Part shown: one piece after another, positions 11,993 through 62,759 of the stretch
Layout of the letters: each line of letters opens with the position of its first letter
Position numbering within the stretch: position 1 is the first letter of the stretch
IMG/VR virus record: IMGVR_UViG_3300045977_000216
Coordinates: 5,638-69,637 of that record
Length of the DNA: 64,000 bases
Direction: 5' to 3' (one strand)
DNA from: a virus
Notes under the pieces: generated by a model
What the model was told of the DNA's origin: nothing
The model's database searches: none
What the model saw: only the letters and a program-made list of their open reading frames with translations
Position numbers and translations under genes: made by a program

Positions 11993-12835
11993 CTACGACA
12001 AAATGGACAACGCGTCTTGTGGAATTTCATACTGGATACCTCTCTCCTCCGCTTCCGACTCAATGTCCCTGTAGAGATCGAGGTCGTTGATCTCTCCGGC
12101 ACACCACGCCATCGCCCGAGTGTAGAGGCCGTTCCCGATGGTGTTCTGCATGTGCTCCATCATCTCGAAGATCTCGGCTGGATTCCGCTTCTTCTTCTGA
12201 AGCACGTTCTTCTTCGGTCGCACGAGCTTGATCGTGTCACCCCTGATCTTACTGTCCTTGATCTTGCGGACGGCTTCGTACTGCATGGCCGTGGTCTTCA
12301 TCGACCCAATAGCACGTATCTGCTCCTGGGAGAGGAGTCCGGTCTCCACGACGCTCTGAATCTCATCGGGGAGCTTCAGGGCGATCTTCCTCACCTGTAT
12401 CCACCCTCGGCTCATCCCAAGCTCCGCGATGAGGGCATCCTCGTTGTACCCGCGACGCATGAGCCTGTCGACCGCCCTCGCCTCCTGCATGATGTTGAGG
12501 CTCTTACGCTTCAGGTTCTCCGTCAGGTTGAGGATGAGGGCGTCGTCGTCCGAGAGCTCGTGCATCACGATCGCGGGAATCGTGGGCAGCTTAATGAAGT
12601 ACTTGTAGGCGGCGTACCGCCTGTGTCCGGCGACGATCCTGTACTTGGCTGGCGGGTGCTTGTCGTATGGCTGGAGGCAGATCGGCTGGATCAGACCACC
12701 GACCTTCTCGATGCTCCTCGCCAAGTCCAGTACGTCGGTCGATGGAATTATCCCGCGGCAGTTAAAGTCGTCGTCGGAGAATATGTCCTCCATCGGAACG
12801 GCCTGGACCTGCTTCTGCTCAATGGTCACCGGCAT
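11993..12835 (-). CDS. ParB/Srx N-terminal domain protein (ParB-like 1)
   Basis: LARSIEKVGGLIQPI, YRIVAGHRRYAA, ENLKRKSL and an HTH-like IAELGMSRGWI. Confidence 0.9.
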   Translation of the reverse strand: MPVTIEQKQVQAVPMEDIFSDDDFNCRGIIPSTDVLDLARSIEKVGGLIQPICLQPYDKHPPAKYRIVAGHRRYAAYKYFIKLPTIPAIVMHELSDDDALILNLTENLKRKSLNIMQEARAVDRLMRRGYNEDALIAELGMSRGWIQVRKIALKLPDEIQSVVETGLLSQEQIRAIGSMKTTAMQYEAVRKIKDSKIRGDTIKLVRPKKNVLQKKKRNPAEIFEMMEHMQNTIGNGLYTRAMAWCAGEINDLDLYRDIESEAEERGIQYEIPQDALSILS

Positions 12836-16150: not shown

Positions 16151-17134
16151 CTACTTCGGCGCAGCCCCGACCGAGTGCATGAGGTCGCCCTCGGCCGCTG
16201 CCTTCTGGACTCGCTCGGCCGCGTCCTTGGCCTTCTTCTCCTCCCGCTCCTTCTTCCGAGCGGCCTTCTGCTCCTCCTCCTCCTTCTTGCGGGCCTCATA
16301 CTTGGACTTGCCGGCCGCGATGCTCCGGTGGTCCATGTGCCCGACGAACTTGATCGCGAGAGCGAAGCCCTCCTCGGGGGTCTTCGCACCAGACTCCTTG
16401 CAGAGCACCGGACCCATCTGTGGGTGCTCCATCTCCTCCTTGAGGACCGCGAGCTTCTGCAGGTGGTACACCGGCACAAAGCCCTCGGGTGCCGCATCGC
16501 GACCCTTGCGGGCGGCGTCGCGGAGCTCCTTCGCACGGGCACCGACGGTGGGGAGGAACTCGCCTGGCTGCTGCGTCATCGCACGGTCCAGGAAGTTCAT
16601 CTGCTCCTCGACCGGCAGCTTCGCCAGAGCGTAGGCGTTGGTGAGGTTGATCTTGTTCTCATCGACCAGCTCCTGGATCTTCGGCTGGAGCTTGATGAGG
16701 TTGAGCCTCTCGTTGAGCCAGGCCGGGCTCTTGGCGAGCTGGCCAGCGAGTTCGGCGAGCGTCAGGAGTGGGTCGCCGGCGAGGATGCGGAGAAGCTGCT
16801 TCGTGTACTCAACTGGCCGCGTCTCGATCTTGTGGACGTTGGCGATGATCTGAGCCCTCAAGATCTCGGCGTCTGCCATGTCGCGGACGTACGCCGGCAT
16901 CTCCAGCAGTCCGGCGTCCTTCGCTCCCGAGAAGCGGTGGAGGCCGTCGATCAATCGGTACTTGTTCTCGCCGGCCGGTCGGACGGAGATGGGGTTGATG
17001 ATCCCCTCCGTACGGATCGAGTCCACGAACGCGATGTACTTCTCCGTCTGCTTGTTCACGCTCCTGAGAGCGACCTTGTTCTCCTCGATCTGGTCGAGGG
17101 GAATCATCTTCAGGACTCCGTTGGTCTCGGACAT
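16151..17134 (-). CDS. ParB/Srx N-terminal domain protein (ParB-like 2)
   Basis: SIRTEGIINPISVR, YRLIDGLHRF, HTH LAELAGQLAKSPAWL and a charged C-terminal tail. GGAGG RBS. Confidence 0.88.
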   Translation of the reverse strand: MSETNGVLKMIPLDQIEENKVALRSVNKQTEKYIAFVDSIRTEGIINPISVRPAGENKYRLIDGLHRFSGAKDAGLLEMPAYVRDMADAEILRAQIIANVHKIETRPVEYTKQLLRILAGDPLLTLAELAGQLAKSPAWLNERLNLIKLQPKIQELVDENKINLTNAYALAKLPVEEQMNFLDRAMTQQPGEFLPTVGARAKELRDAARKGRDAAPEGFVPVYHLQKLAVLKEEMEHPQMGPVLCKESGAKTPEEGFALAIKFVGHMDHRSIAAGKSKYEARKKEEEEQKAARKKEREEKKAKDAAERVQKAAAEGDLMHSVGAAPK

Positions 17135-17568
17135 CTTCCCTCCAGTATCAGTAAGACTCAATGGTACAGTGAATCACAGGACAACCGCAACGTGGTGCCT
17201 GATCAGCTCTCGCGAGCAACGTACTCTCCTTTCTTATCGGTCGCGAAATCAAGGATTGCGAAATCAAATCCGTTCACGTTTGCAGTCTCCTCACTCAATC
17301 CTACTTTCCATTCTGGGAAAGTTACGGTCAATTTTTTCTTACTGACCTACCAATTTTTTCCTTTCTCCTATACGTTTCCCTGCCCCTTATCCTTCTATTG
17401 AGCAAGTTGAACCAGAGTAGTATGGAAAAGACGGAAGTGTATGGTACGATTAGACTTGCGAAAATTGCCGTAACATTCAGTAAATGGAAAGTATGATAAG
17501 GATCGGAGTATCGCTTGTGGCTCGATTTGATCGTGAAATCTTTATTCAGCTCGCGGGAGCAACGTCCT
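17135..17568. promoter_or_regulatory. AT-rich divergent control region
   Basis: Visibly lower GC between divergent operons. Tandem GCGAAATCAA at 17243 and 17258. Confidence 0.6.
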
Positions 17569-50347: not shown

Positions 50348-52119
50348 TTGACACCTCCTATCAGCGTCGCCTGCGAGCGACGAGCCGCGAAGGCCGTCAC
50401 CAGCGACCAGTCCACCCTGTTGATCTCAAGACCACTTTTCAGAGCCGCGATCCTAACGTCCTCCGGCACGATGACCCCGTTGACCGGAACTGGCGGCAGC
50501 AAAATCCTCAGGTGCTCGACGGCCTGCTCCCGCTGCTTCCTCCTGGCCTCGTCACCGTCCTTGATCGCGGAATCAAGAGGGACGTCGAAGCCGAGCTCCC
50601 TGAGGGCTTCGACGGGCCCGACCGTGCGGTAGAAGTAGGAGTCCCAATCGGACGCCACCCTCTGAGACGCTAGGACGACTACATCGGTCTGATCCGGCGA
50701 GACCTTCCAGGTGCCGGTCGCCCTCAGGACGGCAGCCGCGTAGGAGTTCCGGAGTGGCTCTAGGGCCTCCTCCGGCTCGCCGCCGTACCAGCCACGTATC
50801 CTGTCCCTGGCGTCCTTCTTAACCAGGTCCCCGAAAACCCCGACGTCCCTCGCGAGCAGAATCTTGACGTCGTTGACTAGTGGCTTCCAGCCATCCCTGT
50901 CCGGCCCGTGGCACCTAATGCACGCCACGGCTCCCTGGAGCGTGTTCGTGTACGGCTCGGGAATCCGGTGGTCGACGGCCACGTTCTGCGGGACGAACTC
51001 CTGCAGGGTCCCGCGACCATTGAACAGTGCGTACCCGAGCATTCCATTCGCCCGAGTGAAGATGACCTCCCTGGCGAAGTCTACGAACTCCACCAGGTTC
51101 ATGATCGCGTGCTGCCCGACGTCTATGTCCTCGTCGGACACGTCGTGCGTCACGAAGCACCAGCCGAGCAGCGTCCTGAAGTAGTCGACCCGCCTCGGCT
51201 TTCCCGTGACCAGACTACGGAAGATCCCGACCCTGCCGTCGCCCCTGATCCTGTCGAAGATGTCGGCGGCGGTGACGCCGGCTGCAATATTCCCGACCCC
51301 GAGGCTCTCGAAGAGCAGGTCCTCGTCCGATCCCTTCTGACCCGCCCTCCGGATGCCGGCGAACTCATAGTAGAGCCCGCCGAAGATCGTCCTGAATGCT
51401 CCCTTCCCCTTGATCGTGGAGAGCATCCTGGCGAAGAGGTACTGGTGGGAGACTATCGGGGCCAGGGACTTCGTGGCTTCCCTCAACTTCGGGAAGTGCG
51501 GAACGTGCTCCGCGTCGAACCTCACCACATCCTTCCCGAGCTCGGAGACCGGTACCTCCACCTCCCTGACGGTCTCCTCGGAGTACGTCTCCTCGACGTC
51601 CCGCACCGCGAACTGGTTCCCTCCCAGGGCCACCCTCTGCTTAACCGTCCGCTTCTTCTGCGTGGTCTCGACGACCTTCTTCTTGACCTTCGGCAGGTCA
51701 AGATCGAGGAGAGGAATGAGGTCCTTGGTCACGAGCAGCGAGAAGTCAGGATCAAATTGCAGCTCGTCCCAGAGCTCGAGCCACTCCTTAAGGTCGGCTA
51801 GGACGGGAGCGAAGTCCTTCAGGTTGACCCTGACCAGGACCGCATCTCCCCTACCCACGGCCCTCGGTTGCACGATCACGGAGGACCGGCTCGTGGTGTT
51901 CAGCACGAAGGCCACGGCCTGGTACGACGCCTGGCTCCCGTTCTTCACCCACACGTACCGAGTGAACGCTCGCTCCTCAGGAGCTACGCTCTCAAGGTCC
52001 TCCGCCGCGAGCTCCGCCGCCACGGCCGGAACGGTCACGGGCTTCGGCTTGACCGGTGCCTGCGGCGTGCCGGTGGTCGCGAGAGCTAAGATCAAAAACA
52101 GCGGTGCCAGGTGCTTCAT
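50344..52119 (-). CDS. exported CxxCH-containing (cytochrome c-type) protein
   Basis: Signal peptide MKHLAPLFLILALA. EVIF..ANG..GY.L..G.G....VP....D, then CIRCH at 50908-50922. Confidence 0.65.
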   Translation of the reverse strand: MKHLAPLFLILALATTGTPQAPVKPKPVTVPAVAAELAAEDLESVAPEERAFTRYVWVKNGSQASYQAVAFVLNTTSRSSVIVQPRAVGRGDAVLVRVNLKDFAPVLADLKEWLELWDELQFDPDFSLLVTKDLIPLLDLDLPKVKKKVVETTQKKRTVKQRVALGGNQFAVRDVEETYSEETVREVEVPVSELGKDVVRFDAEHVPHFPKLREATKSLAPIVSHQYLFARMLSTIKGKGAFRTIFGGLYYEFAGIRRAGQKGSDEDLLFESLGVGNIAAGVTAADIFDRIRGDGRVGIFRSLVTGKPRRVDYFRTLLGWCFVTHDVSDEDIDVGQHAIMNLVEFVDFAREVIFTRANGMLGYALFNGRGTLQEFVPQNVAVDHRIPEPYTNTLQGAVACIRCHGPDRDGWKPLVNDVKILLARDVGVFGDLVKKDARDRIRGWYGGEPEEALEPLRNSYAAAVLRATGTWKVSPDQTDVVVLASQRVASDWDSYFYRTVGPVEALRELGFDVPLDSAIKDGDEARRKQREQAVEHLRILLPPVPVNGVIVPEDVRIAALKSGLEINRVDWSLVTAFAARRSQATLIGGVK

Positions 52120-52285
52120 AAAAAACCGCACGCAATATGGTCGTAAATCGTGCGGCGGGTGGCCCTTCAGAATCCCGCCACTATCATACTTTCCATTCTT
52201 GAAAAGTTACTGCCGGAATATTTTGGACCAAATTGCGTGCCACGACCGTAACCGCCAGGAAATGGATAGTATGATTCTGCGAGCT

Positions 52286-52342
52286 GCATCCTGCTCCAAG
52301 CATCTTGCTCCAAGCATCCTGCTCCAGAGACCAGCATCTTGC
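52286..52342. repeat. 14-bp tandem repeat x3 plus a partial copy
   Basis: GCATCYTGCTCCAR at 52286, 52300 and 52314, with GCATCTTGC at 52334. Confidence 0.9.
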
Positions 52343-52461
52343 GTCTGATTTCAAAATCCGGAAATTTTCTCACAGCATGGGGTGTGCCATTGTGGCAGTC
52401 GTGAGTTGAGGCTCCGCATGAATTCAGACCCTCCCTCACTTTTGCGGCCCCACCTCAATTA

Positions 52462-52508
52462 TTTTGAGGCCACGCCCGAATTTTTGAGGCCACGCCCGAA
52501 TTTTGAGG
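52462..52508. repeat. 20-bp tandem repeat x2 plus a partial copy
   Basis: TTTTGAGGCCACGCCCGAA twice, then TTTTGAGG. Confidence 0.9.
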
Positions 52509-52566
52509 TGTGGCCTGACTGCCATTGTGGCAGGGGTAGTGTACGGCCGTACAGGTAAAATCTCTC

Positions 52567-52595
52567 TTGACATGGGGTGCCGATTGTGGTACAAT
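52567..52595 (+). promoter_or_regulatory. strong sigma-70 promoter (early operon)
   Basis: TTGACA-17 nt-TACAAT with an extended -10 TG. Confidence 0.8.
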
Positions 52596-52743
52596 GGGGC
52601 CATGAGGGAAAGATGCCAGACAGGCAGTCTGGCTCCCGCGACCTACTGCGGTGAACGACCGAGGCACTGTACGTGCGTGCACCTACTTGCACCCGTCAGG
52701 TCTCCAGGACCACCGGCAGGTCGCGGGCTGTGACGAGGCGTCG

Positions 52744-52950
52744 ATGGTCCCGAAACTTGAGGACAGATTGGAGAATCCCGTGTCCAGAATCCGCACCCTA
52801 GAGCTGCAAACAGCAGCTCGTCTTAGGGAACTGGCTGAATCCCTGTCGAAGGATGATGGTCCCGCTGACCTAGAGAGCGTGATCGCCGGAATGAAATGTC
52901 TCGCCTTTGAGATTTCGTCTCTGGCACTAGATTTAGAGATCAATAGGTAG
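52744..52950 (+). CDS. hypothetical helical protein
   Basis: GAGG RBS, start MVPKLEDRL. Its 5' end is duplicated near 52989. Confidence 0.4.
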   Translation: MVPKLEDRLENPVSRIRTLELQTAARLRELAESLSKDDGPADLESVIAGMKCLAFEISSLALDLEINR

Positions 52951-53076
52951 ACTTGCGTACTGCGGGTCTCGCACCCCGCCTACCTACTGGCGTCGATGGT
53001 CCCGAAACTGGAGGGAGATTGTCTGAAATCCGAGCGTCTGGGGTCCGCGTGGGGAATCCCGCGTCCGGTAATATAA

Positions 53077-53320
53077 TGGCCTAGCGGCCACGCTATCTCA
53101 GGCTCGCGAGAGCTTGAGACCTCCTGCGGGTAGAAACCGCTAACGCTTGCAATCCGTGTGTGCCGTGAGGCACGTTCGGTGAGCGGGAGGAAATGTACCA
53201 GGGAGGTTTCGCGTACCTGGTCGGATGTCACCTGACGAGGTGTATGCCAACGGCGGGGTCACTCCCGCGTCAGTCCTGCACCGCGGTCACGGTACCAGCG
53301 GGTGACATGCCGAATCAAAG
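53077..53320 (+). ncRNA. candidate structured RNA / 5' leader
   Basis: Follows TATAAT (53072). Several stems, two capped by GNRA loops (GCGA, GUGA), with G-U pairs on the + strand. Confidence 0.4.
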
Positions 53321-53366
53321 AGTGAAGTGTGCGGGACGAGCGGCCCTCGGGAAAGAGAGGTCCGCC

Positions 53367-53591
53367 ATGAGTCATCGCACAGTGAGGATTAAGGCTTCTG
53401 GAATCTGCGGCCACGTCCTCGGCACCTACATGCGGGACGTCCGCCTGGTCACAGGACCGGACGGACACGCCACGCACGTTGAGGTCCGAAAAGCACTGGT
53501 GGTCCAAGTCTACGACGTGGACTCCAGGGGAAACGTCTACGGCTCCGAGAGGGTCGTCGTCCTTGAGACTGAGGTTGAATTCCTGTCCTGA
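53367..53591 (+). CDS. hypothetical early protein
   Basis: GAGAGG RBS, start MSHRTV. Bracketed by IR pair 1. Confidence 0.65.
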   Translation: MSHRTVRIKASGICGHVLGTYMRDVRLVTGPDGHATHVEVRKALVVQVYDVDSRGNVYGSERVVVLETEVEFLS

Positions 53592-53780
53592 GCACCCCGC
53601 ATCGAGGGTCCCTCGTCCCGCACACTTCCTAGGCTGATAAACTACGTTGCGAACTTTTGGTGGCACGCGGACGCGAAAGCGGCCAATGGTCGCCACGAGC
53701 AAGCCGCGTAGTGGACGGCTACCTTGAATGGGCTCATGGGCCTCAACCACTGATTGCGAAATCAGAAGGGAGACCTACAC

Positions 53781-54965
53781 ATGAGTTCACTCAAGTTCTC
53801 TGACAAGCACATCGACCCCATCAAGTTGGTCGTCAACCGTGACATCAACTGGCGGGAAAAGACCGGTTACGACGTCCCGAGCATGGTGCAAGACATCACT
53901 CGCGACGGTCGCATCACCGAGAGCGTGCACGTGTTGGACCCCAAGGATTGTGAGCGGCTGCAGCTCGCCGAGAACACGGTTCTCCGTGGAAACAGGCGGA
54001 CCGACGCTGCCCACGCCATCCTCGCGGACAAGAACTCGCCGGCTGGCCTCGTGGAGGCTCTGAGGAAGACCCCCGTGAAGTTCGTCAGCGGGTTCGAAGA
54101 CCTGAAGGCCGTGGAAGACTACATGCTCGACCACGGCTCGGCGAAACCGCTGAGCCGAACCGAGGTGGTCCACGCGGTCTGGCGGTTGGCCGCCAACATG
54201 CACTCCGAGTCCGAGATCGGCGAGCGGTTGTACCACTTGCTCGCACGGTACACCGGAAACGTCAAGAAGGCTCAGGAGATGAGCTCGATGACGGACCGGC
54301 AGGCTCGGCGGGCAGCCATTGGAAAGTGGCTGCACGGCACGCTCGGCAACTTCTTGCTGGCCGTCAACGGAATGGGCGAAGCTCTCCGGAGCCAGCTCAC
54401 CCTGACGAGCCACAAGGAGGACGGCGTCCTGACCCAGGACGAAGCTGGGCTCTTCGTCCTGCAGGTCACCCGTGGTCGCGTGACGGAACTCTCCGCCGCG
54501 AAGACCAAGGACAAGGACGCCAAGGGATGGAACCCGCTGGAGAAGGTCGACGTCGTCAAGGACGGCGACGGCAAGATCGTCACGATCAAGTGCAAGGGCG
54601 GCGGCGAGGAGTTCAACGCCAAGGTGGAAACCTTCATCCGCGAGGATGCTGGCGAGTCCAACGGCAACAAACCCCGACCCACGTCCAAGACCTTGGAGGC
54701 ACTCGCGGACGCGAGCAAGTCCAAGGTGGCACGCGGCGTGTTCCTGGCCAGTGCTGGTAAGAAGGCCGACAACCTCCTGGACCTGGACGCCGAGGCGTAC
54801 AGGTGCGAGCGGGTGTGCGAGCTGCTCAAGGAAGCAGCTGACAGGCTCACCGCGAGCGGGGAACACAAGATCGAGGTCACCAGCTCGCAGCTGGCCGACC
54901 TGTTCAACAAGCTGAGCGTCTCGTCCGCCACCGTGGTCGAGGCCGCTCTCAAGACCGTCAGCTAG
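53781..54965 (+). CDS. divergent ParB/Srx-domain protein (ParB-like 3)
   Basis: N.R....Y.V.SM..DI...G.I, VLRGNRR..A and KPLSR.E. AAGGGAG RBS. Confidence 0.65.
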   Translation: MSSLKFSDKHIDPIKLVVNRDINWREKTGYDVPSMVQDITRDGRITESVHVLDPKDCERLQLAENTVLRGNRRTDAAHAILADKNSPAGLVEALRKTPVKFVSGFEDLKAVEDYMLDHGSAKPLSRTEVVHAVWRLAANMHSESEIGERLYHLLARYTGNVKKAQEMSSMTDRQARRAAIGKWLHGTLGNFLLAVNGMGEALRSQLTLTSHKEDGVLTQDEAGLFVLQVTRGRVTELSAAKTKDKDAKGWNPLEKVDVVKDGDGKIVTIKCKGGGEEFNAKVETFIREDAGESNGNKPRPTSKTLEALADASKSKVARGVFLASAGKKADNLLDLDAEAYRCERVCELLKEAADRLTASGEHKIEVTSSQLADLFNKLSVSSATVVEAALKTVS

Positions 54966-55066
54966 TCACCAACCGCAACTGGCCCACGAGCCCATCCAAG
55001 GTAGCCGTCCAGCAAGCCTAGCCCAGACGACACCCGCCGAGGTGCCCTCGGGAAAGCGAGGGTAAT

Positions 55067-55255
55067 ATGCCAAAGTACATCGAGCTGGTGATCACGAAGT
55101 GCAGGGGCGGCAAGCGTTCGCTGTGGAACGCACGCCACCCAGCAGTACCTCACGTGGTCGGTGCCGGCAACACGGCCGACAACGCGATCCGCGACTGGTA
55201 CAAACAAAACAAAGCACACCAGGAGAAGTACAATGGTCATTCTCAGGATGTCTAA
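55067..55255 (+). CDS. hypothetical early protein
   Basis: GAGG RBS. G.G.T.D.AI.D resembles a HicB-like segment. A 26-aa ORF (55248-55328) may follow inside the same IR pair. Confidence 0.55.
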   Translation: MPKYIELVITKCRGGKRSLWNARHPAVPHVVGAGNTADNAIRDWYKQNKAHQEKYNGHSQDV

Positions 55256-55418
55256 CTTCACCAAGGTTTGGTCCGCGTCCGGAACGTGGCTTATCTATGG
55301 CAACTGGCCGGCGGCAATCCGCATCTGAAATCAACAGCGAGGGCACCTCGGCGGGTGCCGTCGGGACTCTAACCTGACGGGGTCCGCCGAGGTGCTCTCA
55401 GAAAGCGAGGACACCAAC

Positions 55419-55724
55419 ATGCGAGACCCAAAGAACATCAGGATTCACCACTTCGACGACACCAGCGAGGCCTACGACTGCTCGCAGTATCGCGACGACA
55501 TCGAGATGGGCGACGTCCTGGTCGTCGAGAGCGAGAAGGTCGTCGGATTCCTCCTGGCCGCATGGCCAGTGGCCGTCACCGTGGAGTACGGCAGCCTGCA
55601 CCGCTTCACAAACAGAAAGCCGCAGCTTGCTACCCACCCCGAGGACGTAAGGGACTGGCGACCGTACTACGAGCGGGCGAAGGAGGTCGCGAAAGCACTC
55701 GGCTACGAGCTGGGAGTTGACTAA
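55419..55724 (+). CDS. hypothetical early protein
   Basis: GAGG RBS. EAYD.SQ..D.I..GDVLVV..E.VVG....WP.AVT motif. Bracketed by IR. Confidence 0.7.
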   Translation: MRDPKNIRIHHFDDTSEAYDCSQYRDDIEMGDVLVVESEKVVGFLLAAWPVAVTVEYGSLHRFTNRKPQLATHPEDVRDWRPYYERAKEVAKALGYELGVD

Positions 55725-55810
55725 CCACCTTAACACGAGAGCACCTCGGCGGACCCCGTCAGCAACGCAGTGGGCTCGCCGAGGTGCCCTTTCCAGAAGG
55801 GAGACCTGAC

Positions 55811-56083
55811 ATGAAGATGCACAAGGAGCTCAGCAACATTCACACGACTTGCGTTCACGTGAACGCAACAAACGTCGTCAAGGTAGCTGAGAACGTCTAT
55901 AGGATCGAGTTCCCCGCTCGCGAGATCAGCGACGCTGAGCGTGAGGTACTCCGCAACCTGTTCCCGAATCTGACCGACAGGGCGTACCAGCTCCTCGATC
56001 AGGAAGCCATGCTGAACATCGTCTGCGAGCCGCCCGCGAAGCCAGAATCCAGCCTCACGGCACACGCGGATTGCAAGCGTTAG
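55811..56083 (+). CDS. hypothetical early protein
   Basis: AAGGGAG RBS. Bracketed by IR. Confidence 0.65.
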   Translation: MKMHKELSNIHTTCVHVNATNVVKVAENVYRIEFPAREISDAEREVLRNLFPNLTDRAYQLLDQEAMLNIVCEPPAKPESSLTAHADCKR

Positions 56084-56175
56084 CACCTAACTAACCGGAA
56101 GGGCACCTCGGCGAGCCCACTGCACAACCGACGGTGGGACCGCCGAGGTGCCCTTCCGGAAAGGACGGGTGACCC

Positions 56176-56409
56176 ATGAAGCTGCACCTGACCATTGAGA
56201 TCACCGACCGTGAGGCCGAGTTGATCTCAGAAGCGAGCATCGAGAGGGTCGTCAACACGACGATCGGCATTCTCGACCGCTCGCGACACCCAGAAGCCGA
56301 TGCGTGCGGCACAGACTGGCGAGACCACAAGCGTACAGTGATCGCACTCTGGCACAGGCTGCAAGGTGCGATCTTCCGCGTGCAGAACAAACTTCCTCCT
56401 CAGGACTAG
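56176..56409 (+). CDS. hypothetical early protein
   Basis: AAGGA RBS. Bracketed by IR. Confidence 0.65.
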   Translation: MKLHLTIEITDREAELISEASIERVVNTTIGILDRSRHPEADACGTDWRDHKRTVIALWHRLQGAIFRVQNKLPPQD

Positions 56410-56465
56410 CGTGAGGAAGGGCACCTCGGCGGACCCACCGTCACAACACCCAAGGGAGAACTGAG

Positions 56466-56825
56466 ATGCTGACAGCAGCGTTTCGACCTGGCACGACGGC
56501 ATGCTCCTGCGAGCTGTGCGAGCAGCCCGTCGGCGAGCACGCGGTTCGCGGACGCACCAAGTACGGTCCGTGGGCACTGATGTGCGTGGGCTGTTGGTCG
56601 CACGTCGGCACTGGAATTGGTCCGGCTCACGGTCGCCACTTCCTGGTCCGGCAGGGCGTCCTCACAGAGCAGAAGGAATCCCACGCCATCCGCAGGAACG
56701 GAATCCTCGTGATCGTCGGAGCCACTCACAGGGCACGCGAGCCAATGGCCTACGAGCCGCACCACGAGTCGTGCTGTCGCTCCGAGGGCAATCCAGTGTG
56801 CCAGTGCAGGTGTCACACGCCATGA
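56466..56825 (+). CDS. Zn-finger-like early protein
   Basis: CELC...RT..GPWA.MC..C....G.G.G. Confidence 0.65.
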   Translation: MLTAAFRPGTTACSCELCEQPVGEHAVRGRTKYGPWALMCVGCWSHVGTGIGPAHGRHFLVRQGVLTEQKESHAIRRNGILVIVGATHRAREPMAYEPHHESCCRSEGNPVCQCRCHTP

Positions 56826-56883
56826 TCTGGGCCATTGTGGTAATCGTCCTGATCACCTGCGTGTTCTACACGAGGAGGAAGCT

Positions 56884-57078
56884 ATGAGGGTGTTCTTCGT
56901 CTGGCTCAGGGGACCTGATGAACCAGGTCCGCTCGCAGACTGGATCGTGCGAGCCGACGATCCCTTCCAGGCCATCGACAAGGTTCGGGCGACCTTCAAG
57001 TCACCCCTTCCCGATGACATGGGGATCGACGCTCGCGAGATCACTGAAGAAGTCTGGGAGATTCCATCACTCATCTAG
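56884..57078 (+). CDS. hypothetical protein
   Basis: GGAGG RBS, 64 aa. Confidence 0.55.
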   Translation: MRVFFVWLRGPDEPGPLADWIVRADDPFQAIDKVRATFKSPLPDDMGIDAREITEEVWEIPSLI

Positions 57079-57092
57079 AAGGGAGGGTCGAG

Positions 57093-57272
57093 GTGTTCCG
57101 AGTTGGGGAAGCCGTCTGGTCGTGCACGCACAAAGCCTACGGTCGCGTGGTGCGTGTACTCGGCGGCGAGTTGCTGATCTCAGTGCATGGTCGCGTGGTG
57201 AACGACGAGCTCGTGGAGGTCGCTACCGAGCTCGTGTACGATTACGTCCCCACGACGATGCACCACTACTAA
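57093..57272 (+). CDS. hypothetical protein (59 aa)
   Basis: Hand translation VFRVGEAVWSCTHKAYGRVVRV...HHY*. GGAGG RBS. Ends just before the terminator. Confidence 0.55.
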   Translation: MFRVGEAVWSCTHKAYGRVVRVLGGELLISVHGRVVNDELVEVATELVYDYVPTTMHHY

Positions 57273-57276
57273 CGCA

Positions 57277-57321
57277 GCGGAGGGAGGTGCCGAAAGGCAC
57301 CTCCCTCCGCATTTTTTTTTT
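57277..57321 (+). terminator. rho-independent terminator of the early operon
   Basis: 15-bp perfect stem GCGGAGGGAGGTGCC-GAAA-GGCACCTCCCTCCGC followed by A and 10 T. Confidence 0.92.
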
Positions 57322-57838
57322 GCTTTCACGAGCGGAGCTCCCTGACCAAGCGAGCCCTATCGTGCATAAAAAGGCCAAGGTAGATGCCCCGCGTCGCGAC
57401 GTTGAGGTCAGTGAGGGCATTCTCTGGATACACGTTCTCATGACCGTGCCGGCAGACCGCCAGCAAGGCCGACGGTCAGAGCAAGTCCTCGCTGATGCTC
57501 CCGTCCCTGATCCCAGAAGCGATCTCCTCCGTCCTGCGGTGCCTCCCGCCCTCGTGCCAGAGCAACTCTGCTCCCTTGGCGTAGCTGAGGACCCTGTCGC
57601 AGACCTTCTTCAAGTGCTCTGTCTCAATCATGACATGATTCCTCCAGTTTCCCGTGGCACGGTTTCCGGACCACTTACGTGCCCACTGAATAGGGGGGGG
57701 TTCCTATTCCCCTATATACTCCCCTATGGTTGTTGTTGTTGTATAGTACAAATAGAATATAAGACGGGGTGACGATCCGGAAGTCGTTGCCCCGCAAGGA
57801 CTTACGTCAATTCAGGCGTGGCATGAACGTGGTCCGGA

Positions 57839-58291
57839 TTACGTGCCGCTGCTCCCGAGTCGATTCTCGCCCCTCTTGGTCTCCGAGAGCTCTTCAACCA
57901 CTCTCACCAGCGGTGCCGACACCTTCTGGATGAGGACCTGGGCGACTTTGTCACCCGCCTTGAAGTGAACGACCTCGCCAGACGTGTTCAGGAGCCACAC
58001 GATCCACTCACCCCTGTAGTCCGCGTCGATGACGCCGGCCAGCGACCTTATCCCCTTCGCACCGGTGCTCCCGCGATCCCACACCAGTGCCACGTGTCCG
58101 GCGGGCACCTCGCAGGCGATCCCCGTGTGAACGGCGATCCTGAAGCCCGGCGGAAGGTCGATGGGGTCCGTACACCTTATGTCGTACCCAGCCGAGTTGT
58201 ACGCCCTCTCCGGCGGCCTCGCACCAGGTCGCAGGAGCTTGACCCTCAGCTCCAGCTCAGTCACGAGCGTGTGTTGACACGGGGGCATCAT
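57839..58291 (-). CDS. dut: trimeric dUTPase
   Basis: Motifs AGYDI, DRGS, GVIDADYRGE, AQ and RG...GSSG. Confidence 0.93.
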   Translation of the reverse strand: MMPPCQHTLVTELELRVKLLRPGARPPERAYNSAGYDIRCTDPIDLPPGFRIAVHTGIACEVPAGHVALVWDRGSTGAKGIRSLAGVIDADYRGEWIVWLLNTSGEVVHFKAGDKVAQVLIQKVSAPLVRVVEELSETKRGENRLGSSGT

Positions 58292-59749: not shown

Positions 59750-60456
59750 ACCCTCCCGTTCTCGCAGAACGCCCTCTGCGTGAGCGGCCACCCCTCCTTG
59801 AAGATCGCCTCGCACGCCCTCGCCGCTTCCTCGATCTCCGCCTGCGGGTACGAGACGAACATGGCGTCCGGCTCGTGGGTCCTCAGGGACAGGAAGTGCA
59901 TGAGGGACCGCGGGTTGCAGGTCACCCAGCACCTTGAGTACGTAGCCACCGGCAGCACCGCCCTCGCGACCTCCTTGGCTATGCCTTGCCGAAGCATTGA
60001 CTTATAGTGCCACCACGCTTGCCTGTACACTTGAGTCATTTGATGACAGACTCCATTGTGTATATTGGAGTCGGCGGGCTGGAGCTTCGGGCGAGCGGGG
60101 CTGAAGTCTGGTCCCGCGATCATCTTCCTCTCCGCCCTCGGCACCCAGAACTTGGGCCTCAGCTCGCTGTAGCGACCGGACTCCTCGTTGTAGGACATCC
60201 CGATCCTGTGGCGGTGCCACTCACGCCAGACGAAGATCGGTGCGTCCACGAAGAACGTCACGGCGGAGTGCTCAAAGGGCGTGCCGTGCCTGTGCTTCAT
60301 CAGGTAGTTGATTCTGCCGTAGGACGCCTCCCCGTCCTGCACTACCCGAAGGGCCTCTTCGGGGTCCTTCGAGACCAGCATCGCTCCCACGATCATGGCG
60401 TCTCCGCCCATGCCGTCGACCCGTCGCACTAGGATCTCGCTCGTTGTCTCGATCAC
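59740..60456 (-). CDS. thyX: FAD-dependent thymidylate synthase
   Basis: HGTPFEH, REWHRHR..SYNEESGRY, EVARAVLP, NPRSLMHFLSLR and Q.EI. Confidence 0.96.
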   Translation of the reverse strand: MIETTSEILVRRVDGMGGDAMIVGAMLVSKDPEEALRVVQDGEASYGRINYLMKHRHGTPFEHSAVTFFVDAPIFVWREWHRHRIGMSYNEESGRYSELRPKFWVPRAERKMIAGPDFSPARPKLQPADSNIHNGVCHQMTQVYRQAWWHYKSMLRQGIAKEVARAVLPVATYSRCWVTCNPRSLMHFLSLRTHEPDAMFVSYPQAEIEEAARACEAIFKEGWPLTQRAFCENGRVGP

Positions 60457-60809
60457 TTCTTCACCTCTTCATAGAGAAGTTTGTAGAATGCGTGGTACCT
60501 GGACTTGAACAGGTCGGCCCACGAGGCTGAGACTATTTCGTGCTCGGGGTTCCCCGTCGGCGTGTAGCTCTTGACCTCCGTTAGGAAGCAATAGGTGTAG
60601 CTCACCTCGTCTGGCGGCCCGTGGAAGATTAGCTCTTGATACATCGCAGTGAGACCGACCTCCTCCATCAGCTCCCTCGCGGCGGCCTGCTTGAAGTCCT
60701 CGCCCGCCTCCGCCCTGCCCCCAGGCAGGATGATTCCACGACCTTTCTTGCACTGGATTCCGACTATCCCCTCGTTCATGTGTATCAGGGAGATGCAGCC
60801 GATGATCAT
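60453..60809 (-). CDS. Nudix hydrolase
   Basis: Nudix box PGGRAEAGEDFKQAAARELMEEVGL. Confidence 0.9.
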   Translation of the reverse strand: MIIGCISLIHMNEGIVGIQCKKGRGIILPGGRAEAGEDFKQAAARELMEEVGLTAMYQELIFHGPPDEVSYTYCFLTEVKSYTPTGNPEHEIVSASWADLFKSRYHAFYKLLYEEVKK

Positions 60810-62759
60810 GTATTCCTCCTGACTACGATCAGCTCCTCGGTCCTGTTCTGAAACTTCATGATGTCGACGTCGCCGGTGAATATGCTCTTGACCTTCCTGT
60901 ACTTGAAGCTCACGATGCCGTCGATGTCCACGATCCCTGACTTCCCGAGCTTCTCCTCGATCACCTTCACGCTCTGGGCCGTATGCCACCAGCCCCTGTA
61001 GTAGTACGCTGAGTTCATGGCTCCTCCTTGTATACCTCGTACTCACCGGTCTTGAAATCAATGTACCCCATGTACTCGCTTCCGTCCATCATGCTCCATA
61101 AGTTTTGCCATGTCGCTTCCTCCTAAAGAAGGCCTCGGCGAGCACGAGCTCGCTGTCTACGTTCCTGCTGATCGCACGAGCGTCATTCTCGACCTTCGGC
61201 GGAACCATCCCGCCCTGTCGCCTCATCCAGTTCCGGCACTCGTTGCCCTCGGTGAGGTCAGGATCGCTGAACCTCCACCAGTACCTGGGGTCGGGACCGA
61301 TGTACCGTGCGGCGTACCTCGCCTCGCCGTCCTCGAACAGCCTGTCTACGACGCCCTCCGTGCTCCAGAGACCGTACCCCTCCGTCAGGTACTGCCTGTG
61401 GTAGCGGACCCCGCCCAGGTTACCGCAGACCTCGTGCATCGCGTCTCTGTCGTGGACGACGTCGACCGAGTCCCTGTCTCCCGCGAGCACCTCCAGCCTC
61501 GTCATCGCCAGGGGTCCTGACGTCGGTCCCTTGTCGATGCTGAAGGTCACCATACCTCCCGCATCCCAGACCTGGACGAGGTTGCTGCCGGCGTCCCGCA
61601 GGACGTCAATCCTCAGCACTCCGTCGTAGAAGCTGGCGGTCGGACCCGCCGGCATCAACCTGCACTCAAGGCACTCGAAATAAAGCATGCATCAACTCCT
61701 CGTTGTTGAAAACCTTGCATCCGTGCGAGTGGTCCAGCTCGCCGACCAGGGCGGCGAATTCCCGCACCTCGTGCTTCGTTGCTCTCGCGAGCCGAACGCA
61801 GTGCGTCCCGCAGCAGCCGCAGGTGCCGGCGTATACGTGGACTCCGGCGATCCAGCCGAGCTCCATTACTACGCCTATTTTGTACGGCTCGCCCTCCTCG
61901 TTGCAGACGGGACACACCATGATTATACCGCCGGAAGTCGCCTCGACTTCCCTCAGGTCAATCCACACTGTCATCTGGCACTCCCTTCTCGACCTGCCGC
62001 CTCACGCTCGCGGCGGCTGACTCAACCTCATGGATGTCGGTGCAGAGGTTGGAGTTCCGGAGGTAGAGCACGGCCTCGTCTAGGCCGTAGAGTTCCGCGT
62101 CCTTCCAGAACTGGATGCTGTAGCCCTCACCTCCTGGTTTTAGGAGCCGGTCGACGGTCATCTCCACCCAGCGGACGAGAGAGCTCCCGTGAGCCAGGTC
62201 GAACTTGACCAGCTCCCTTAGGTAGAGTCGCTTCTTCACGTCTCCTCCTCCATGCTGTTGAGCAGGCGCTCGAGCTCGCCCCTGTTGATCTTCTTCTCTT
62301 CCTTGACCTCCTCGACCTTCTTGACCCGGAATTGGTTGTAGAAGCTCTCGTCAGGATCACCACCCTTGCACCAGCACCGGAGGGCCTCCCTGATGTAGCT
62401 CGCCACCTCCCTCCGGTCGCTCCCGTCGGGAACGACCACCGTGACCCGATACGTCGCCGTCCTCATATTGATTCTCCGATCATTGGCGGCATCAGGCAGG
62501 ACAGGTCGACGGTGATCTGGTGCCCGATCCGCCGCTCGTGTTCCAACAGTGTCCACATCAGCTCGCCGTAGGCGTAGCTCGGCCTGGGGTCCCTCCAGAA
62601 CCTCGGCGTTCCCGTCCACGGCTGCACGTAGAAGCTCGTCACGATCTTGTCACTCGGCTCCAGCCAGTACGTCTCCACGTACTCTCCGACGCAGACTCGC
62701 ATCCTGCCGTCGTCGGTTATGGCGGAGTACGTCGTCTCTTTATAACTCCTGTAGATCAC
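60806..62759 (-). other. cluster of short hypothetical ORFs (60806-61018, ~61089-61655, 61666-61974 Zn-ribbon, 61958-62239, ~62236-62466, 62463-62759)
   Basis: Coupled start/stop overlaps. No family recognised. Confidence 0.45.

What the first reader, a model, noticed from the sequence alone, without database searches (positions are those of the whole stretch)
53324..56442. Six consecutive early genes, each clamped by its own long inverted repeat (RBS-to-stop gene loops)
Seen directly: each gene unit has a 25-31 bp arm ending just 5' of its GAAAG/GAAGG-type RBS and the reverse complement starting 5-15 nt after the stop codon. Matches: 53324-53349/53603-53628 (24/26), 53712-53742/54981-55011 (29/31, spanning a 1.2-kb ParB-like gene), 55026-55050/55338-55362 (24/25), 55374-55399/55737-55762 (26/26), 55767-55791/56099-56123 (25/25), 56130-56157/56415-56442 (27/28). 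For the third pair the distance is from the stop of a small second ORF, 55248-55328. The arms are pair-specific. Pairs 1 and 2 are unrelated in sequence. Pairs 3-6 share a core (CGCCGAGGTGC/GCACCTCGGCG) but carry different flanks that co-vary with the partner across the gene, so long-range pairing rather than a fixed motif appears to be selected. From pair 2 onward, successive units are joined by linkers of only 4-14 nt. Inference, three models: (a) the early mRNA folds into a chain of loops that puts each stop codon beside its own RBS, allowing closed-loop re-initiation; (b) the stems are RNase III-type processing stems, as in pre-rRNA, releasing end-paired or circularised monocistronic mRNAs; (c) they are DNA-level cassette ends for inversion, excision or shuffling. 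I know of no described phage system with this layout, and no recombinase is visible in the window.
Basis: partly seen in the sequence, partly recalled or inferred. Interest (0 to 1): 0.92.

Follow-up and report, generated by a model that had tools for sequence, protein, structure and literature searches.

The report
Phage early genes enclosed by stems
In an uncultured soil phage, six neighbouring early genes each sit between two matching flanks that can pair into a long stem in the messenger RNA, probably so that one long transcript is cut or folded into single-gene units, a layout I could not find described for phage messages.

Summary
All six inverted-repeat pairs exist at the stated coordinates with the stated matches (24/26, 29/31, 24/25, 26/26, 25/25, 27/28). 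I found a seventh pair: 33 nt, leader against the end of gene 5. Such repeats are absent from 100 shuffles. They number 3 in 1.30 Mb of other phage loci.

All arms lie in spacers of one predicted transcription unit (promoter 52567-52595, terminator 57277-57310). Pairs 3-6 share an 11-nt core, but 13 of 31 aligned columns co-vary with the partner across the gene. The cross-gene assignment ranks 1 of 24 by duplex energy.

A distant relative (metagenome contig L123, gene 2 at 36% identity) also brackets its gene 2 with a 27-nt repeat of unrelated sequence.

Best reading (confidence 0.45): long-range RNA stems of 25-33 bp, long enough for RNase III, that divide the early polycistronic RNA into end-paired single-gene units.

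Not shown: any RNA end, any cleavage, the host.

DNA-level cassette ends are less likely. There is no recombinase among 48 ORFs scanned, no rearranged contig in four runs, and the arms fall into three unrelated families.

"ParB-like" has fold-level support only. An SD-masking switch failed its control.

This scan has reported the same layout in at least seven other uncultured phages (unchecked notes). Five literature searches found no description.

The parts
52567..52595 (+). sigma70-like promoter (TTGACA, 17 nt, TACAAT, with TG) at the head of the + strand operon
   Evidence: 11 of 12 matches. It is the only promoter-like site in 52000-58000 (shuffles give a mean of 1.2, so the count itself is not enriched).
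53139..53171 (+). Leader element, left arm of the seventh pair (I1); complementary to the 3' end of gene 5
   Evidence: 33 nt, 32/33, with sharp borders. The single mismatch is U-G on the + strand. The surrounding 53193-53366 is not coding by GC1/2/3.
53324..53349 (+). Pair 1, 5' arm
   Evidence: 24/26 with 53603-53628; duplex -50.8 kcal/mol; ends 17 nt before the ATG.
53367..53591 (+). Gene 1 (74 aa, no family)
53603..53628 (+). Pair 1, 3' arm
   Evidence: starts 11 nt after the stop.
53712..53742 (+). Pair 2, 5' arm
   Evidence: 29/31 with 54981-55011; -59.2 kcal/mol; ends 38 nt before the ATG.
53781..54965 (+). Gene 2 (394 aa); N-terminal domain with a ParB/sulfiredoxin-like fold
   Evidence: 12 homologs besides the window's own protein; pLDDT 82; top Foldseek hits are ParB, KorB and Noc at E about 1e-3; no Pfam, PHROG or PDB sequence match.
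54981..55011 (+). Pair 2, 3' arm
   Evidence: starts 15 nt after the stop.
55026..55050 (+). Pair 3, 5' arm (extends to 55020 at 90%)
   Evidence: 24/25; -53.8 kcal/mol; ends 16 nt before the ATG.
55067..55328 (+). Gene 3 (55067-55255, 62 aa) and a doubtful overlapping 26-aa ORF (55248-55328)
   Evidence: The small ORF has atypical GC1/2/3 (0.33/0.56/0.74).
55338..55362 (+). Pair 3, 3' arm
   Evidence: 82 nt after the gene 3 stop and 9 nt after the small ORF's stop.
55374..55399 (+). Pair 4, 5' arm
   Evidence: 26/26; -60.9 kcal/mol; ends 19 nt before the ATG.
55419..55724 (+). Gene 4 (101 aa); about 150-170 nt are 72-77% identical in DNA to the 5' part of larger genes of Streptomyces phages
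55737..55762 (+). Pair 4, 3' arm
   Evidence: starts 12 nt after the stop.
55767..55791 (+). Pair 5, 5' arm
   Evidence: 25/25; -58.4 kcal/mol; ends 19 nt before the ATG.
55811..56083 (+). Gene 5 (90 aa); homolog in L123 (38% identity)
56052..56084 (+). Right arm of the seventh pair (I1), inside the end of gene 5
56099..56123 (+). Pair 5, 3' arm
   Evidence: starts 15 nt after the stop.
56130..56157 (+). Pair 6, 5' arm
   Evidence: 27/28; -61.9 kcal/mol; ends 18 nt before the ATG.
56176..56409 (+). Gene 6 (77 aa, no family)
56415..56442 (+). Pair 6, 3' arm
   Evidence: starts 5 nt after the stop.
56466..57272 (+). Genes 7-9 of the same operon, tightly packed and without enclosing repeats
57277..57319 (+). 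Intrinsic terminator (15-bp stem, 12 G-C pairs, a run of 9 T) closing the operon; both stem halves carry the 8-mer GAGGTGCC/GGCACCTC of the arm core

Best explanation
The six pairs, and probably the seventh, act in RNA. One early polycistronic transcript of about 4.7 kb folds so that each of genes 1-6 lies in the loop of its own 25-31 bp stem, made from the spacer just before its ribosome-binding site and the spacer just after its stop codon. These near-perfect helices exceed the roughly 22 bp (two helical turns) that bacterial RNase III needs. The most likely outcome is therefore cleavage within each stem. That would release single-gene messages whose 5' and 3' ends stay paired by the inner half of the stem, insulated from neighbours and shielded from end-dependent decay. 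This is the logic of the duplexes that flank 16S and 23S rRNA, applied gene by gene to a phage mRNA. Shown: the repeats, their placement, their partner-specific co-variation, the single predicted transcription unit, and conservation of the bracket around gene 2 in a distant relative. Inferred: that pairing happens in RNA, that a double-strand RNase cuts it, and what that does to stability or translation.
For: (1) Complementarity is kept without sequence conservation. There are three unrelated arm families in one array (pair 1, pair 2, pairs 3-6). In contig L123, whose gene 2 homolog is 36% identical, a 27-nt repeat (24/27) of unrelated sequence brackets that homolog. It is one of only 2 repeats at that threshold in 8.3 kb, against 0 in 100 shuffles. 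Its two arms share two indels that set them apart from the 9 other copies of the same motif. (2) Partner specificity within pairs 3-6: 13 of 31 columns change on both sides, none on one side; the nearest relative of each of the 8 arms is its cross-gene partner; the cross-gene assignment ranks 1 of 24 by energy. (3) All 14 arms lie between one promoter-like site and one strong terminator on the coding strand, with no promoter-like site inside the array; two weak terminator-like matches fall at 55273 and 55350. Twelve of the 14 arms lie in non-coding spacers. The exceptions are the right arm of I1, which is inside gene 5, and the left arm of I1, which is in the leader. (4) Stem lengths are 25-33 bp and duplex energies -51 to -62 kcal/mol; the idealised E. 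coli RNase III substrate is 22 bp (PMC3867540, passage seen), and RNase III binds the duplexes flanking 16S and 23S rRNA (PMC8708148, passage seen). (5) Minimum-free-energy folds of growing transcripts from 55012 hold the cross-gene stems at each of the 7 stages (of 9 folded) at which a complete pair has been transcribed, except one, where junction B is transiently local. The full 3.5-kb fold keeps I1 and pairs 1-4. (6) The half-sites at the ends of the core-sharing array (only a 5' arm before gene 3, only a 3' arm after gene 6) fit gene-enclosing units and do not fit local hairpins.
Against: There is no RNA evidence. The one metatranscriptome that holds the stretch is available only as contigs, which cannot show ends and may be DNA. 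Mismatches give no strand signal: on the + strand there are G-U pairs in pair 1 (1), I1 (1) and the L123 bracket (2), but A-C mismatches in pair 2 (2) and pair 3 (1). Those A-C mismatches would be G-U on the - strand, where pairs 2 and 3 are 8.0 and 4.5 kcal/mol more stable. Co-variation among paralogous pairs in one genome could equally be born by inverted duplication at the DNA level. Only one orthologous comparison (L123) is available, and in L123 the other genes carry direct, not inverted, repeats. Local hairpins at junctions B and D (-53.7 and -67.0 kcal/mol) would form faster than stems closing 300-nt loops. In the full-length fold I1 displaces pairs 5 and 6. The host, and hence its RNase III, is unknown. 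A family-level relative (terminase 55% identical, G001) lacks gene 2 and any gene brackets. The right 43 kb of Streptomyces phage Hiyaa, the nearest cultured capsid relative, also has none.
Confidence: 0.45

Rival explanations
1. RNA stems that are not cut. The gene loops act as folding insulators or translation devices. For example, they might bring each stop codon next to its own start site so that ribosomes re-initiate on the same gene, or delay translation until the whole gene is transcribed.
For: The 5' arm lies at a tightly fixed distance from the ATG in 5 of 6 units (16-19 nt), and the 3' arm begins 5-15 nt after a stop. In minimum-energy folds of each free 5' arm with its leader, the inner end of the arm pairs with the SD or AUG region in all 6 units.
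Against: That SD pairing is not beyond chance. With the arm letters shuffled, 13, 26, 41, 68, 79 and 104 of 200 shuffles reach the native value in the six units. Near-perfect helices of 25-31 bp would be hard to keep from RNase III, which needs about 22 bp (PMC3867540). No known bacterial precedent for stop-to-start looping of this kind turned up in my searches.
Confidence: 0.15
2. DNA-level cassette ends. The inverted repeats are ends at which single-gene modules are inserted, inverted, excised or exchanged between phages, as in PeSL-mediated shuffling in T4-type phages, integron cassettes or elements bounded by terminal inverted repeats.
For: Gene content between genes 2 and 5 differs completely between the window and L123; only genes 2 and 5 of the 14 window proteins tested match L123. 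So this region turns over. I1 is an exact-edged inverted copy of the end of a coding sequence, which looks like a DNA copying event. One contig of the RNA run departs from the window exactly at 56129/56130, the outer edge of the 5' arm of pair 6 (table 7: a single contig, not followed up). PeSLs show that repeated regulatory cassettes can drive modular exchange and mini-circles (abstracts of PMC2839356 and PMC4122927).
Against: No integrase, recombinase or transposase family appears among 48 ORFs scanned, 42 in the window and 6 in the rest of the contig. Roughly 20 ORFs of 150 aa or more that look like real genes, mostly structural, were not scanned. Three unrelated arm sequences in one array argue against one sequence-specific enzyme. 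Contigs of 3 DNA runs and 1 RNA run are colinear with the window across the arms, with 0 joints, though contigs drop rare forms. I read only the flanks of pairs 1 and 2 for target-site duplications and saw none. The units have no promoters of their own, unlike PeSLs.
Confidence: 0.18
3. ESAS-like local elements. Each junction is a local inverted repeat upstream of a start codon, either a protein-binding site or a local hairpin as in Cluster K mycobacteriophages. On this view the cross-gene complementarity is a by-product of the junctions resembling each other.
For: Junctions B, C and D have two arms of 19-27 nt separated by 7-15 nt, followed within 16-19 nt by the ATG. ESAS are imperfect 17-bp inverted repeats with a 4-13 bp spacer just upstream of start-associated sequences (PMC3203893, passages). 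In phage Anaya the shared ESAS consensus also gives a 21-nt, 95% repeat across gene 95 (I16 and I24). In L123 the junctions are local hairpins followed by a 23-nt direct-repeat motif that contains the SD; there are 10 direct copies and 1 inverted copy.
Against: This cannot explain pairs 1 and 2, the lone half-sites before gene 3 and after gene 6, or the 13 columns that co-vary with the partner across the gene rather than with the neighbour. Local pairing is 26/31, 20/31 and 26/31 including G-U, and the local assignment ranks 18 of 24. The SAS consensus is absent from the region: 3 matches with up to 2 mismatches in the window, none in the region, at chance level.
Confidence: 0.1
4. Selectively neutral scars of past inverted duplications.
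For: Paralogous pairs could each be born complementary. No functional data exist.
Against: There are seven pairs in 3.3 kb, against 3 in 1.30 Mb of other phage DNA. All six gene pairs sit precisely between stop and RBS, with 0-2 mismatches each. The same gene is bracketed in a relative at 36% protein identity by an unrelated repeat.
Confidence: 0.05

Closest known systems
Duplexes flanking 16S and 23S rRNA in bacterial rrn operons, cut by RNase III (PMC8708148, passage seen)
   Same: Sequences far apart (0.25-2.9 kb here) on one transcript pair to enclose a functional unit in a loop. The helices are longer than two turns. Several such units lie in series on one transcript.
   Different: Here the enclosed units are protein-coding genes, six in a row, each with a private stem that begins 16-19 nt before the ATG. 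Cleavage has not been shown.
RNase III sites between genes of the phage T7 early and late polycistronic mRNAs, and the processing sites of Bacillus phage SP82 early RNA (recalled; T7 is mentioned only in the abstract of PMC4858673 and in a reference of PMC8708148)
   Same: A phage early polycistronic RNA is divided into gene-sized messages at double-stranded structures in the spacers.
   Different: As I recall them, those sites are local hairpins within one spacer. Here the better partner of each arm lies across the gene, and the ends of the array carry half-sites only.
SAS/ESAS repeats of Cluster K mycobacteriophages (PMC3203893, passages; function still unknown in 2025, PMC12699233, passages)
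   Same: Inverted repeats with a short variable spacer sit just upstream of the start region of many non-structural genes. Neighbouring sites are complementary across a gene (Anaya). The relative L123 has a very similar arrangement of a hairpin plus a start-associated direct repeat, with a single inverted copy.
   Different: ESAS share one consensus per genome, and no partner-specific co-variation is reported. Here the flanks are private to each gene, two pairs have unrelated sequences, and the SAS consensus is absent.
PeSL promoter/terminator cassettes of T4-type phages (abstracts of PMC2839356 and PMC4122927)
   Same: Repeated regulatory elements flank small, fast-changing early genes and could serve as points of exchange.
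   Different: PeSLs are direct repeats, each with its own sigma70 promoter and terminator. Here there are no internal promoters, and the repeats are inverted and pair-specific.
Integron attC sites (features recalled)
   Same: There is an array of promoterless single-gene units separated by imperfect palindromes.
   Different: attC arms co-vary locally within one site, carry conserved R''/R' boxes and need an IntI integrase. Here co-variation runs across the gene, and no integrase family was found in the 48 ORFs scanned. I did not notice such boxes when reading the arms, but I ran no pattern search for them.
End-pairing (fold-back inhibition) of hok-family toxin mRNAs (recalled)
   Same: The 5' and 3' ends of a short mRNA (300-400 nt) pair and close the message.
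   Different: That is a single gene with an antisense partner and a processing-dependent switch. No such features were tested or seen here.

Membership tests
RNase III processing stems (rRNA leader-trailer type) | Double helix of about 22 bp or more formed by sequences flanking the unit | tested here: met
   Seven helices of 25-33 bp with 0-2 mismatches and -51 to -62 kcal/mol for the six gene pairs; the length criterion is from PMC3867540.
RNase III processing stems (rRNA leader-trailer type) | Both arms on one transcript | tested here: inconclusive
   Consensus scan only: one promoter-like site at 52567-52595 and one strong terminator at 57277-57310. There is no promoter-like site inside the array, and two weak terminator-like matches fall at 55273 and 55350. 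No transcript data.
RNase III processing stems (rRNA leader-trailer type) | Staggered cleavage in the helix by RNase III | not testable with these tools
   Only contigs of one RNA run were available.
ESAS/SAS (Cluster K mycobacteriophages) | 13-bp SAS consensus just upstream of start codons | tested here: not met
   3 matches with up to 2 mismatches in 64 kb, none in 53324-56442; 44 of 100 shuffles give as many.
ESAS/SAS (Cluster K mycobacteriophages) | Local imperfect inverted repeat with a 4-13 bp spacer next to the start region, sharing one consensus | tested here: inconclusive
   Junctions B, C and D fit the geometry. Pairs 1 and 2 and the two end half-sites do not, and the flanks follow the cross-gene partner.
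PeSL cassettes (T4-type phages) | Each cassette has a strong sigma70-like early promoter plus a terminator stem-loop | tested here: not met
   No promoter-like site in any junction of the array.
Integron cassette array | IntI-type tyrosine recombinase and attC sites with local arm pairing | tested here: not met
   No recombinase family in 48 ORFs scanned (not every ORF was scanned). The local assignment ranks 18 of 24.
Invertible segments / shufflons | Site-specific invertase and both orientations present in the population | tested here: inconclusive
   No invertase family found. There are 0 joints in the contigs of 4 runs, but contigs at depth 2-12 cannot show minor forms.
Elements with terminal inverted repeats (IS/MITE-like) | Shared terminal repeats recognised by one transposase, plus target-site duplications | tested here: not met
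   Three unrelated arm families. No transposase family was found. No flanking direct duplication was seen on reading the flanks of pairs 1 and 2; the flanks of pairs 3-6 were not checked systematically.
ParB/Srx superfamily (for gene 2) | ParB N-terminal fold with the GxxRxxA-type box | tested here: inconclusive
   Pfam: none at E<=0.01. Profile against PDB sequences: none. hhalign against the phage's own ParB: probability 0.08%. For the AlphaFold model (pLDDT 82), the top 11 Foldseek rows are all ParB, KorB or Noc at E 1e-3 to 7e-3, with TM 0.2-0.46. An invariant 'GNRR' occurs in 13 of 13 homologs; its equivalence to the ParB box is my reading.

The most novel reading that the evidence does not exclude
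Gene-in-a-loop modules are a general, undescribed expression architecture of soil phages. Each early gene carries private 5' and 3' flanks that pair in the mRNA. On this reading the flanks do two jobs: they direct a double-strand RNase to release an end-clamped, individually stabilised message, and they travel with the gene as the unit of horizontal exchange. A transferred gene would thus arrive with its own processing and stability signals. The leader element I1, which pairs with the end of gene 5, would add a higher-order switch between alternative foldings of the whole operon.
Probability: 0.25. Interest if true: 0.85.

Novelty: new variant of a known kind. Interest (0 to 1): 0.72.

Why it matters
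If the stems act as proposed, phages have extended the processing-stem logic of rRNA operons to ordinary protein-coding genes, one stem per gene. That would be a new way to set the stoichiometry and lifetime of individual messages from one promoter. It would explain the unusually long, structured spacers seen in the early regions of many uncultured phages. It might also throw light on the still unexplained ESAS/SAS repeats of mycobacteriophages. It would offer compact natural insulator parts for synthetic operons. The hypothesis is directly testable with a cloned 4.8-kb fragment in a wild-type host and an RNase III mutant.

Tried and rejected
SD-masking switch. In the minimum-energy folds the inner end of each free 5' arm pairs with the SD or AUG region in all 6 units. 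With shuffled arms, 13 to 104 of 200 shuffles reach the native value, so I rejected this as evidence.

Strand of action from wobble pairs. The + strand has 4 G-U pairs and 3 A-C mismatches over the window and L123. This gives no signal.

RNA-run contig ends. The contig limits in X6 (for example 55352-55765 and 56151-56382) partly coincide with arms, but DNA-run contigs break at the same places (56130 and 56151 in X4), so they show nothing. Gene 5 has little cover in X6, and a part without cover is no finding.

Relatives. The following gave none: gene 2 alone and as a 13-row alignment in viral contigs; the 595-aa neighbour; the gene 5 alignment; the gene 2 alignment in genome contigs. The arm-core 14-mer gave 80 listed loci (of 120 found) with single chance matches. 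The L123 motif gave 5 single matches. dUTPase gave 13 loci at 39% identity or less, which are not relatives. Genes 2 and 5 have no match in 50,697 cultured phage records.

The terminase relative G001 has repeats that flank tandem iteron-like arrays, not genes.

Rfam gave only two sub-threshold microRNA-precursor matches to the junction D hairpin.

I looked for a boxA-like signal in the leader by eye only and saw none.

The supplementary files of the ESAS and PeSL papers were not opened. They may hold site lists that bear on cross-gene pairing in those phages.

Full report
WHAT THE WINDOW IS

The window is the last 64 kb of a 69.6-kb linear IMG/VR virus record, estimated 75% complete. Near-identical DNA is held by soil metagenome runs.

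Pfam gives a tailed-phage gene set:
- Packaging and structural genes: a gpA-type terminase, a P22-like coat protein and a tape-measure protein.
- Replication and repair genes: family A DNA polymerase, a DUF5906 primase-helicase-like protein, an SNF2 helicase, a UvrD-like helicase, a DNA ligase and a D12 methylase.
- Nucleotide-metabolism genes: class II ribonucleotide reductase, ThyX and dUTPase.
- Two true ParB proteins.
- Proteins with NYN (RNase-like), NUDIX and DHHA1 domains.

No integrase, recombinase or transposase family appeared among the 48 ORFs scanned (42 in the window, 6 in the rest of the contig). Not every ORF was scanned.

The nearest cultured capsids are about 30% identical over half the protein (Streptomyces phages Keanu, Galactica, Hiyaa). 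About 150-170 nt of gene 4 are 72-77% identical in DNA to Streptomyces phage genes. An actinobacterial host is therefore plausible but not shown.

THE OBSERVATION

All six inverted-repeat pairs are present at the stated coordinates with the stated match counts. Each 5' arm ends 16-19 nt before its ATG (38 nt for gene 2). Each 3' arm begins 5-15 nt after a stop codon. For unit 3 this holds only if the doubtful 26-aa ORF 55248-55328 is counted; otherwise the distance is 82 nt.

The + strand ORFs are the genes. Their GC1/GC2/GC3 (about 0.6/0.4/0.72-0.87) match the phage's known genes, and each has a purine-rich SD. The antisense ORFs and the stretch 53193-53366 do not fit.

The repeats are far beyond chance:
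- There are 7 repeats of >=23/25 within 1.5 kb in 53000-56500, against 0 in each of 100 shuffles.
- The 8 repeats of >=90% among the 25 longest in the whole window all lie in 53139-56442, and the best elsewhere is 83%.
- Only 3 repeats at the same threshold occur in 1.30 Mb of 144 other phage or viral loci fetched for other reasons.

I found a seventh pair, I1. The stretch 53139-53171 in the untranslated leader is complementary (32/33, the mismatch a U-G on the + strand) to 56052-56084, which is the last ten codons and stop of gene 5. The edges of the match are sharp.

THE UNIT IS ARM-GENE-ARM

The arms of pairs 3-6 share the core CGCCGAGGTGC. It occurs 8 times, alternating in strand, and nowhere else in the contig. 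Junctions B, C and D can therefore also fold as local hairpins of -53.7, -37.5 and -67.0 kcal/mol. That is the obvious mundane reading, and several results argue against it.

With all 8 arms oriented alike:
- Each arm is most similar to its partner across the gene (27-29 of 39 positions, against <=25 for any other arm).
- Of 31 aligned pair columns, 14 are invariant, 13 change on both sides and 0 on one side.
- Each 5' arm binds its own 3' arm 7-20 kcal/mol better than any of the other three.
- The cross-gene assignment is the best of all 24 (-245.2 against -217.1 for the next), and the local assignment ranks 18th.

The array begins with a lone 5' arm before gene 3 and ends with a lone 3' arm after gene 6. 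Pairs 1 and 2 have unrelated sequences. A family of local hairpins explains none of this.

ONE TRANSCRIPT

A consensus scan finds one sigma70-like promoter on the + strand (52567-52595; 11 of 12 matches, with TG). It also finds one strong intrinsic terminator (57277-57310, followed by a run of 9 T) just after gene 9. There are no promoter-like sites in the junctions. The prediction is therefore a 4.7-kb early transcript that carries all 14 arms. This is a pattern match, not transcript data.

Both halves of the terminator stem contain the 8-mer of the arm core, in the same 5'-to-3' order as the gene brackets (13 copies in the window against 3.95 expected, of which 6 are in arms and 2 in the terminator).

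A RELATIVE

Gene 2 has 12 homologs in the large protein collection besides the window's own protein, but none in cultured phages.

One metagenome contig, L123 (8.3 kb), could be fetched. Of the 14 window proteins tested, it shares gene 2 (36% identity) and gene 5 (38%) and nothing else. The genes in between have therefore been replaced.

Its gene 2 homolog is bracketed by a 27-nt inverted repeat (1907-1933/3169-3195, 24/27) of unrelated sequence. This is one of only two repeats at that threshold in the contig, against 0 in 100 shuffles. It is 4.9 kcal/mol more stable on the sense strand because two of its three mismatches are G-U there.

The other L123 genes are each preceded by a small G+C hairpin, whose stem changes in a compensatory way from site to site, and then by a 23-nt direct-repeat motif that contains the SD. 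There are ten direct copies and one inverted copy. The inverted copy and its partner share two indels that the other nine copies lack. The bracket around gene 2 is thus kept in two lineages, while the rest of the architecture differs.

A more distant relative (G001, terminase 55% identical) has neither gene 2 nor gene brackets. The right 43 kb of Streptomyces phage Hiyaa also has none.

RNA OR DNA

For RNA:
- Complementarity is kept without sequence conservation, across three arm families here and a fourth in L123.
- All arms are co-transcribed by prediction.
- All arms sit in spacers, except the right arm of I1.
- The helices are 25-33 bp, longer than the 22 bp of an idealised RNase III substrate (PMC3867540, passage).
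- Thermodynamic folds of growing transcripts contain the cross-gene stems at every stage at which a complete pair has been transcribed, except one. At that stage junction B is transiently local, before the next 3' arm exists.
- The fold of the whole 3.5-kb region keeps I1 and pairs 1-4, but replaces pairs 5 and 6 by the local D hairpin, because I1 and pair 5 cross.

For DNA:
- Gene content turns over in this region.
- I1 looks like a copied piece of a coding sequence.
- One contig of the RNA run leaves the window exactly at the outer edge of an arm (56129/56130). It is a single contig and was not followed up.

Against DNA:
- No recombinase family was found.
- Contigs of three DNA runs and one RNA run are colinear across the arms with no joints. 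At depths of about 2-12, and as contigs, they cannot exclude rare forms.

Mismatch types give no strand signal: there are four G-U pairs and three A-C mismatches on the + strand.

My idea that the free 5' arm masks the SD failed a shuffled-arm control.

MECHANISM

I commit to the following, with confidence 0.45. The early transcript folds into a chain of gene loops. A double-strand RNase, most simply host RNase III, cuts each stem. Each gene is released as a message whose ends remain paired. This would insulate the genes from one another and protect both ends.

The repeats, their placement, their co-variation and the conserved bracket around gene 2 are shown. Pairing in RNA, cleavage and its consequences are inferred.

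The rivals are:
- Uncut RNA stems that act on folding or translation (0.15).
- DNA cassette ends (0.18).
- ESAS-like local sites with incidental cross-complementarity (0.10).
- Neutral scars (0.05).

The phage's own NYN-domain protein (5374-5844, - strand) is a possible alternative nuclease. I have no evidence that links it to the stems.

COMPARISON WITH WHAT IS KNOWN

The layout works most like the duplexes flanking 16S and 23S rRNA (PMC8708148, passage). It also resembles RNase III processing of T7 early RNA (recalled), although those phage sites are local hairpins.

The closest published sequence architecture is the ESAS/SAS system of Cluster K mycobacteriophages: imperfect 17-bp inverted repeats with a 4-13 bp spacer just upstream of start-associated sequences (PMC3203893, passages). 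Its function was still unknown in 2025 (PMC12699233, passages). In phage Anaya the shared consensus produces cross-gene complementarity trivially. Here the SAS consensus is absent and the flanks are private to each gene.

PeSL cassettes of T4-type phages (abstracts read) are direct repeats, each with its own promoter; that feature is not met here. The integron, invertase and transposon readings each fail a defining feature.

Five full-text searches for gene-flanking inverted repeats or long-range stems in phage operons found nothing relevant. The library lacks most subscription journals, so this is not proof of absence.

EARLIER NOTES OF THIS SCAN

A word search shows that the same layout has been reported on at least seven other uncultured phage genomes. 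The follow-up agents read it as gene-enclosing RNA stems of the RNase III type. Those are unchecked AI notes. They agree with my reading but are not independent evidence, and no look-alike of my stretch or of gene 2 is among them.

VERDICT

I class the finding as a new variant of a known kind, namely processing-stem logic applied gene by gene to a phage mRNA. All functional steps remain untested. Interest 0.72.

Noticed in passing
window 53139-53171 and 56052-56084: A 33-nt element in the untranslated leader is complementary (32/33, the mismatch a U-G) to the last 10 codons and stop of gene 5, 2.9 kb away, with sharp edges. It crosses pair 5, and in the full-length fold it displaces pairs 5 and 6. 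It could be a higher-order switch, an RNase target that removes the stop codon of gene 5, or a DNA copying scar.
   Followed up: partly
L123 3180-6812 and 1907-1922: The relative contig carries 10 direct copies and 1 inverted copy of a 23-nt motif that contains the SD. Each direct copy is preceded by a small G+C hairpin whose stem varies by compensatory changes. The motif can itself fold so that the SD is paired, with a conserved loop of about 10 nt. This closely resembles the SAS/ESAS of Cluster K mycobacteriophages, including the single copy on the other strand. A second repeat (3135-3158/3485-3508, 24 nt, 88%) brackets the next ORF and interleaves with the gene 2 bracket.
   Followed up: partly
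window 57277-57319: The operon terminator stem contains the arm-core 8-mer GAGGTGCC/GGCACCTC in both halves, in the same order as the gene brackets. This suggests that the brackets and the terminator hairpin share an origin.
   Followed up: partly
window 52286-53014: The control region between the divergent late and early operons is full of direct repeats: a 14-nt unit x3 in tandem (52286-52327); a 20-nt unit x2 perfect, plus three degenerate copies (52404-52520); a 14-nt palindrome twice (52385, 52520); and a 26-nt repeat (25/26) at 52737 and 52989 that flanks a possible small gene. They are probably operator sites.
   Followed up: no
window 5374-5844 (-), 60453-61061 (-); L132 1241-2053 (-): The phage encodes a NYN-domain (PIN-like RNase) protein (E 5e-21), a NUDIX hydrolase and a DHHA1-domain protein. 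These could act on RNA ends, but no link to the stems was tested.
   Followed up: no
window 11993-12835 (-), 16151-17161 (-), 53781-54965 (+): There are two canonical ParB proteins (ParB_N plus HTH_ParB), and a third, divergent protein (gene 2) with a ParB-like fold, in one lytic-looking phage genome.
   Followed up: partly
window 56129/56130, run X6: One contig of the metatranscriptome run matches the window from 56130 (the first base of the 5' arm of pair 6) and carries 127 unlike letters before it. Those letters include a variant of the arm core. It may be a related phage with a different upstream unit, or a chimera.
   Followed up: no
window 55438-55607: Part of gene 4 is 72-77% identical in DNA to the 5' part of 445-489-aa genes of Streptomyces phages PapayaSalad and Tubberson. 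This is a shared small N-terminal domain and a hint at an actinobacterial host.
   Followed up: partly
L131 17100-18300 (G001): The 68.9-kb relative with direct terminal repeats has a long A+T-rich non-coding stretch with several families of tandem iteron-like repeats flanked by 23-27-nt inverted repeats. It is probably an origin or packaging region.
   Followed up: no
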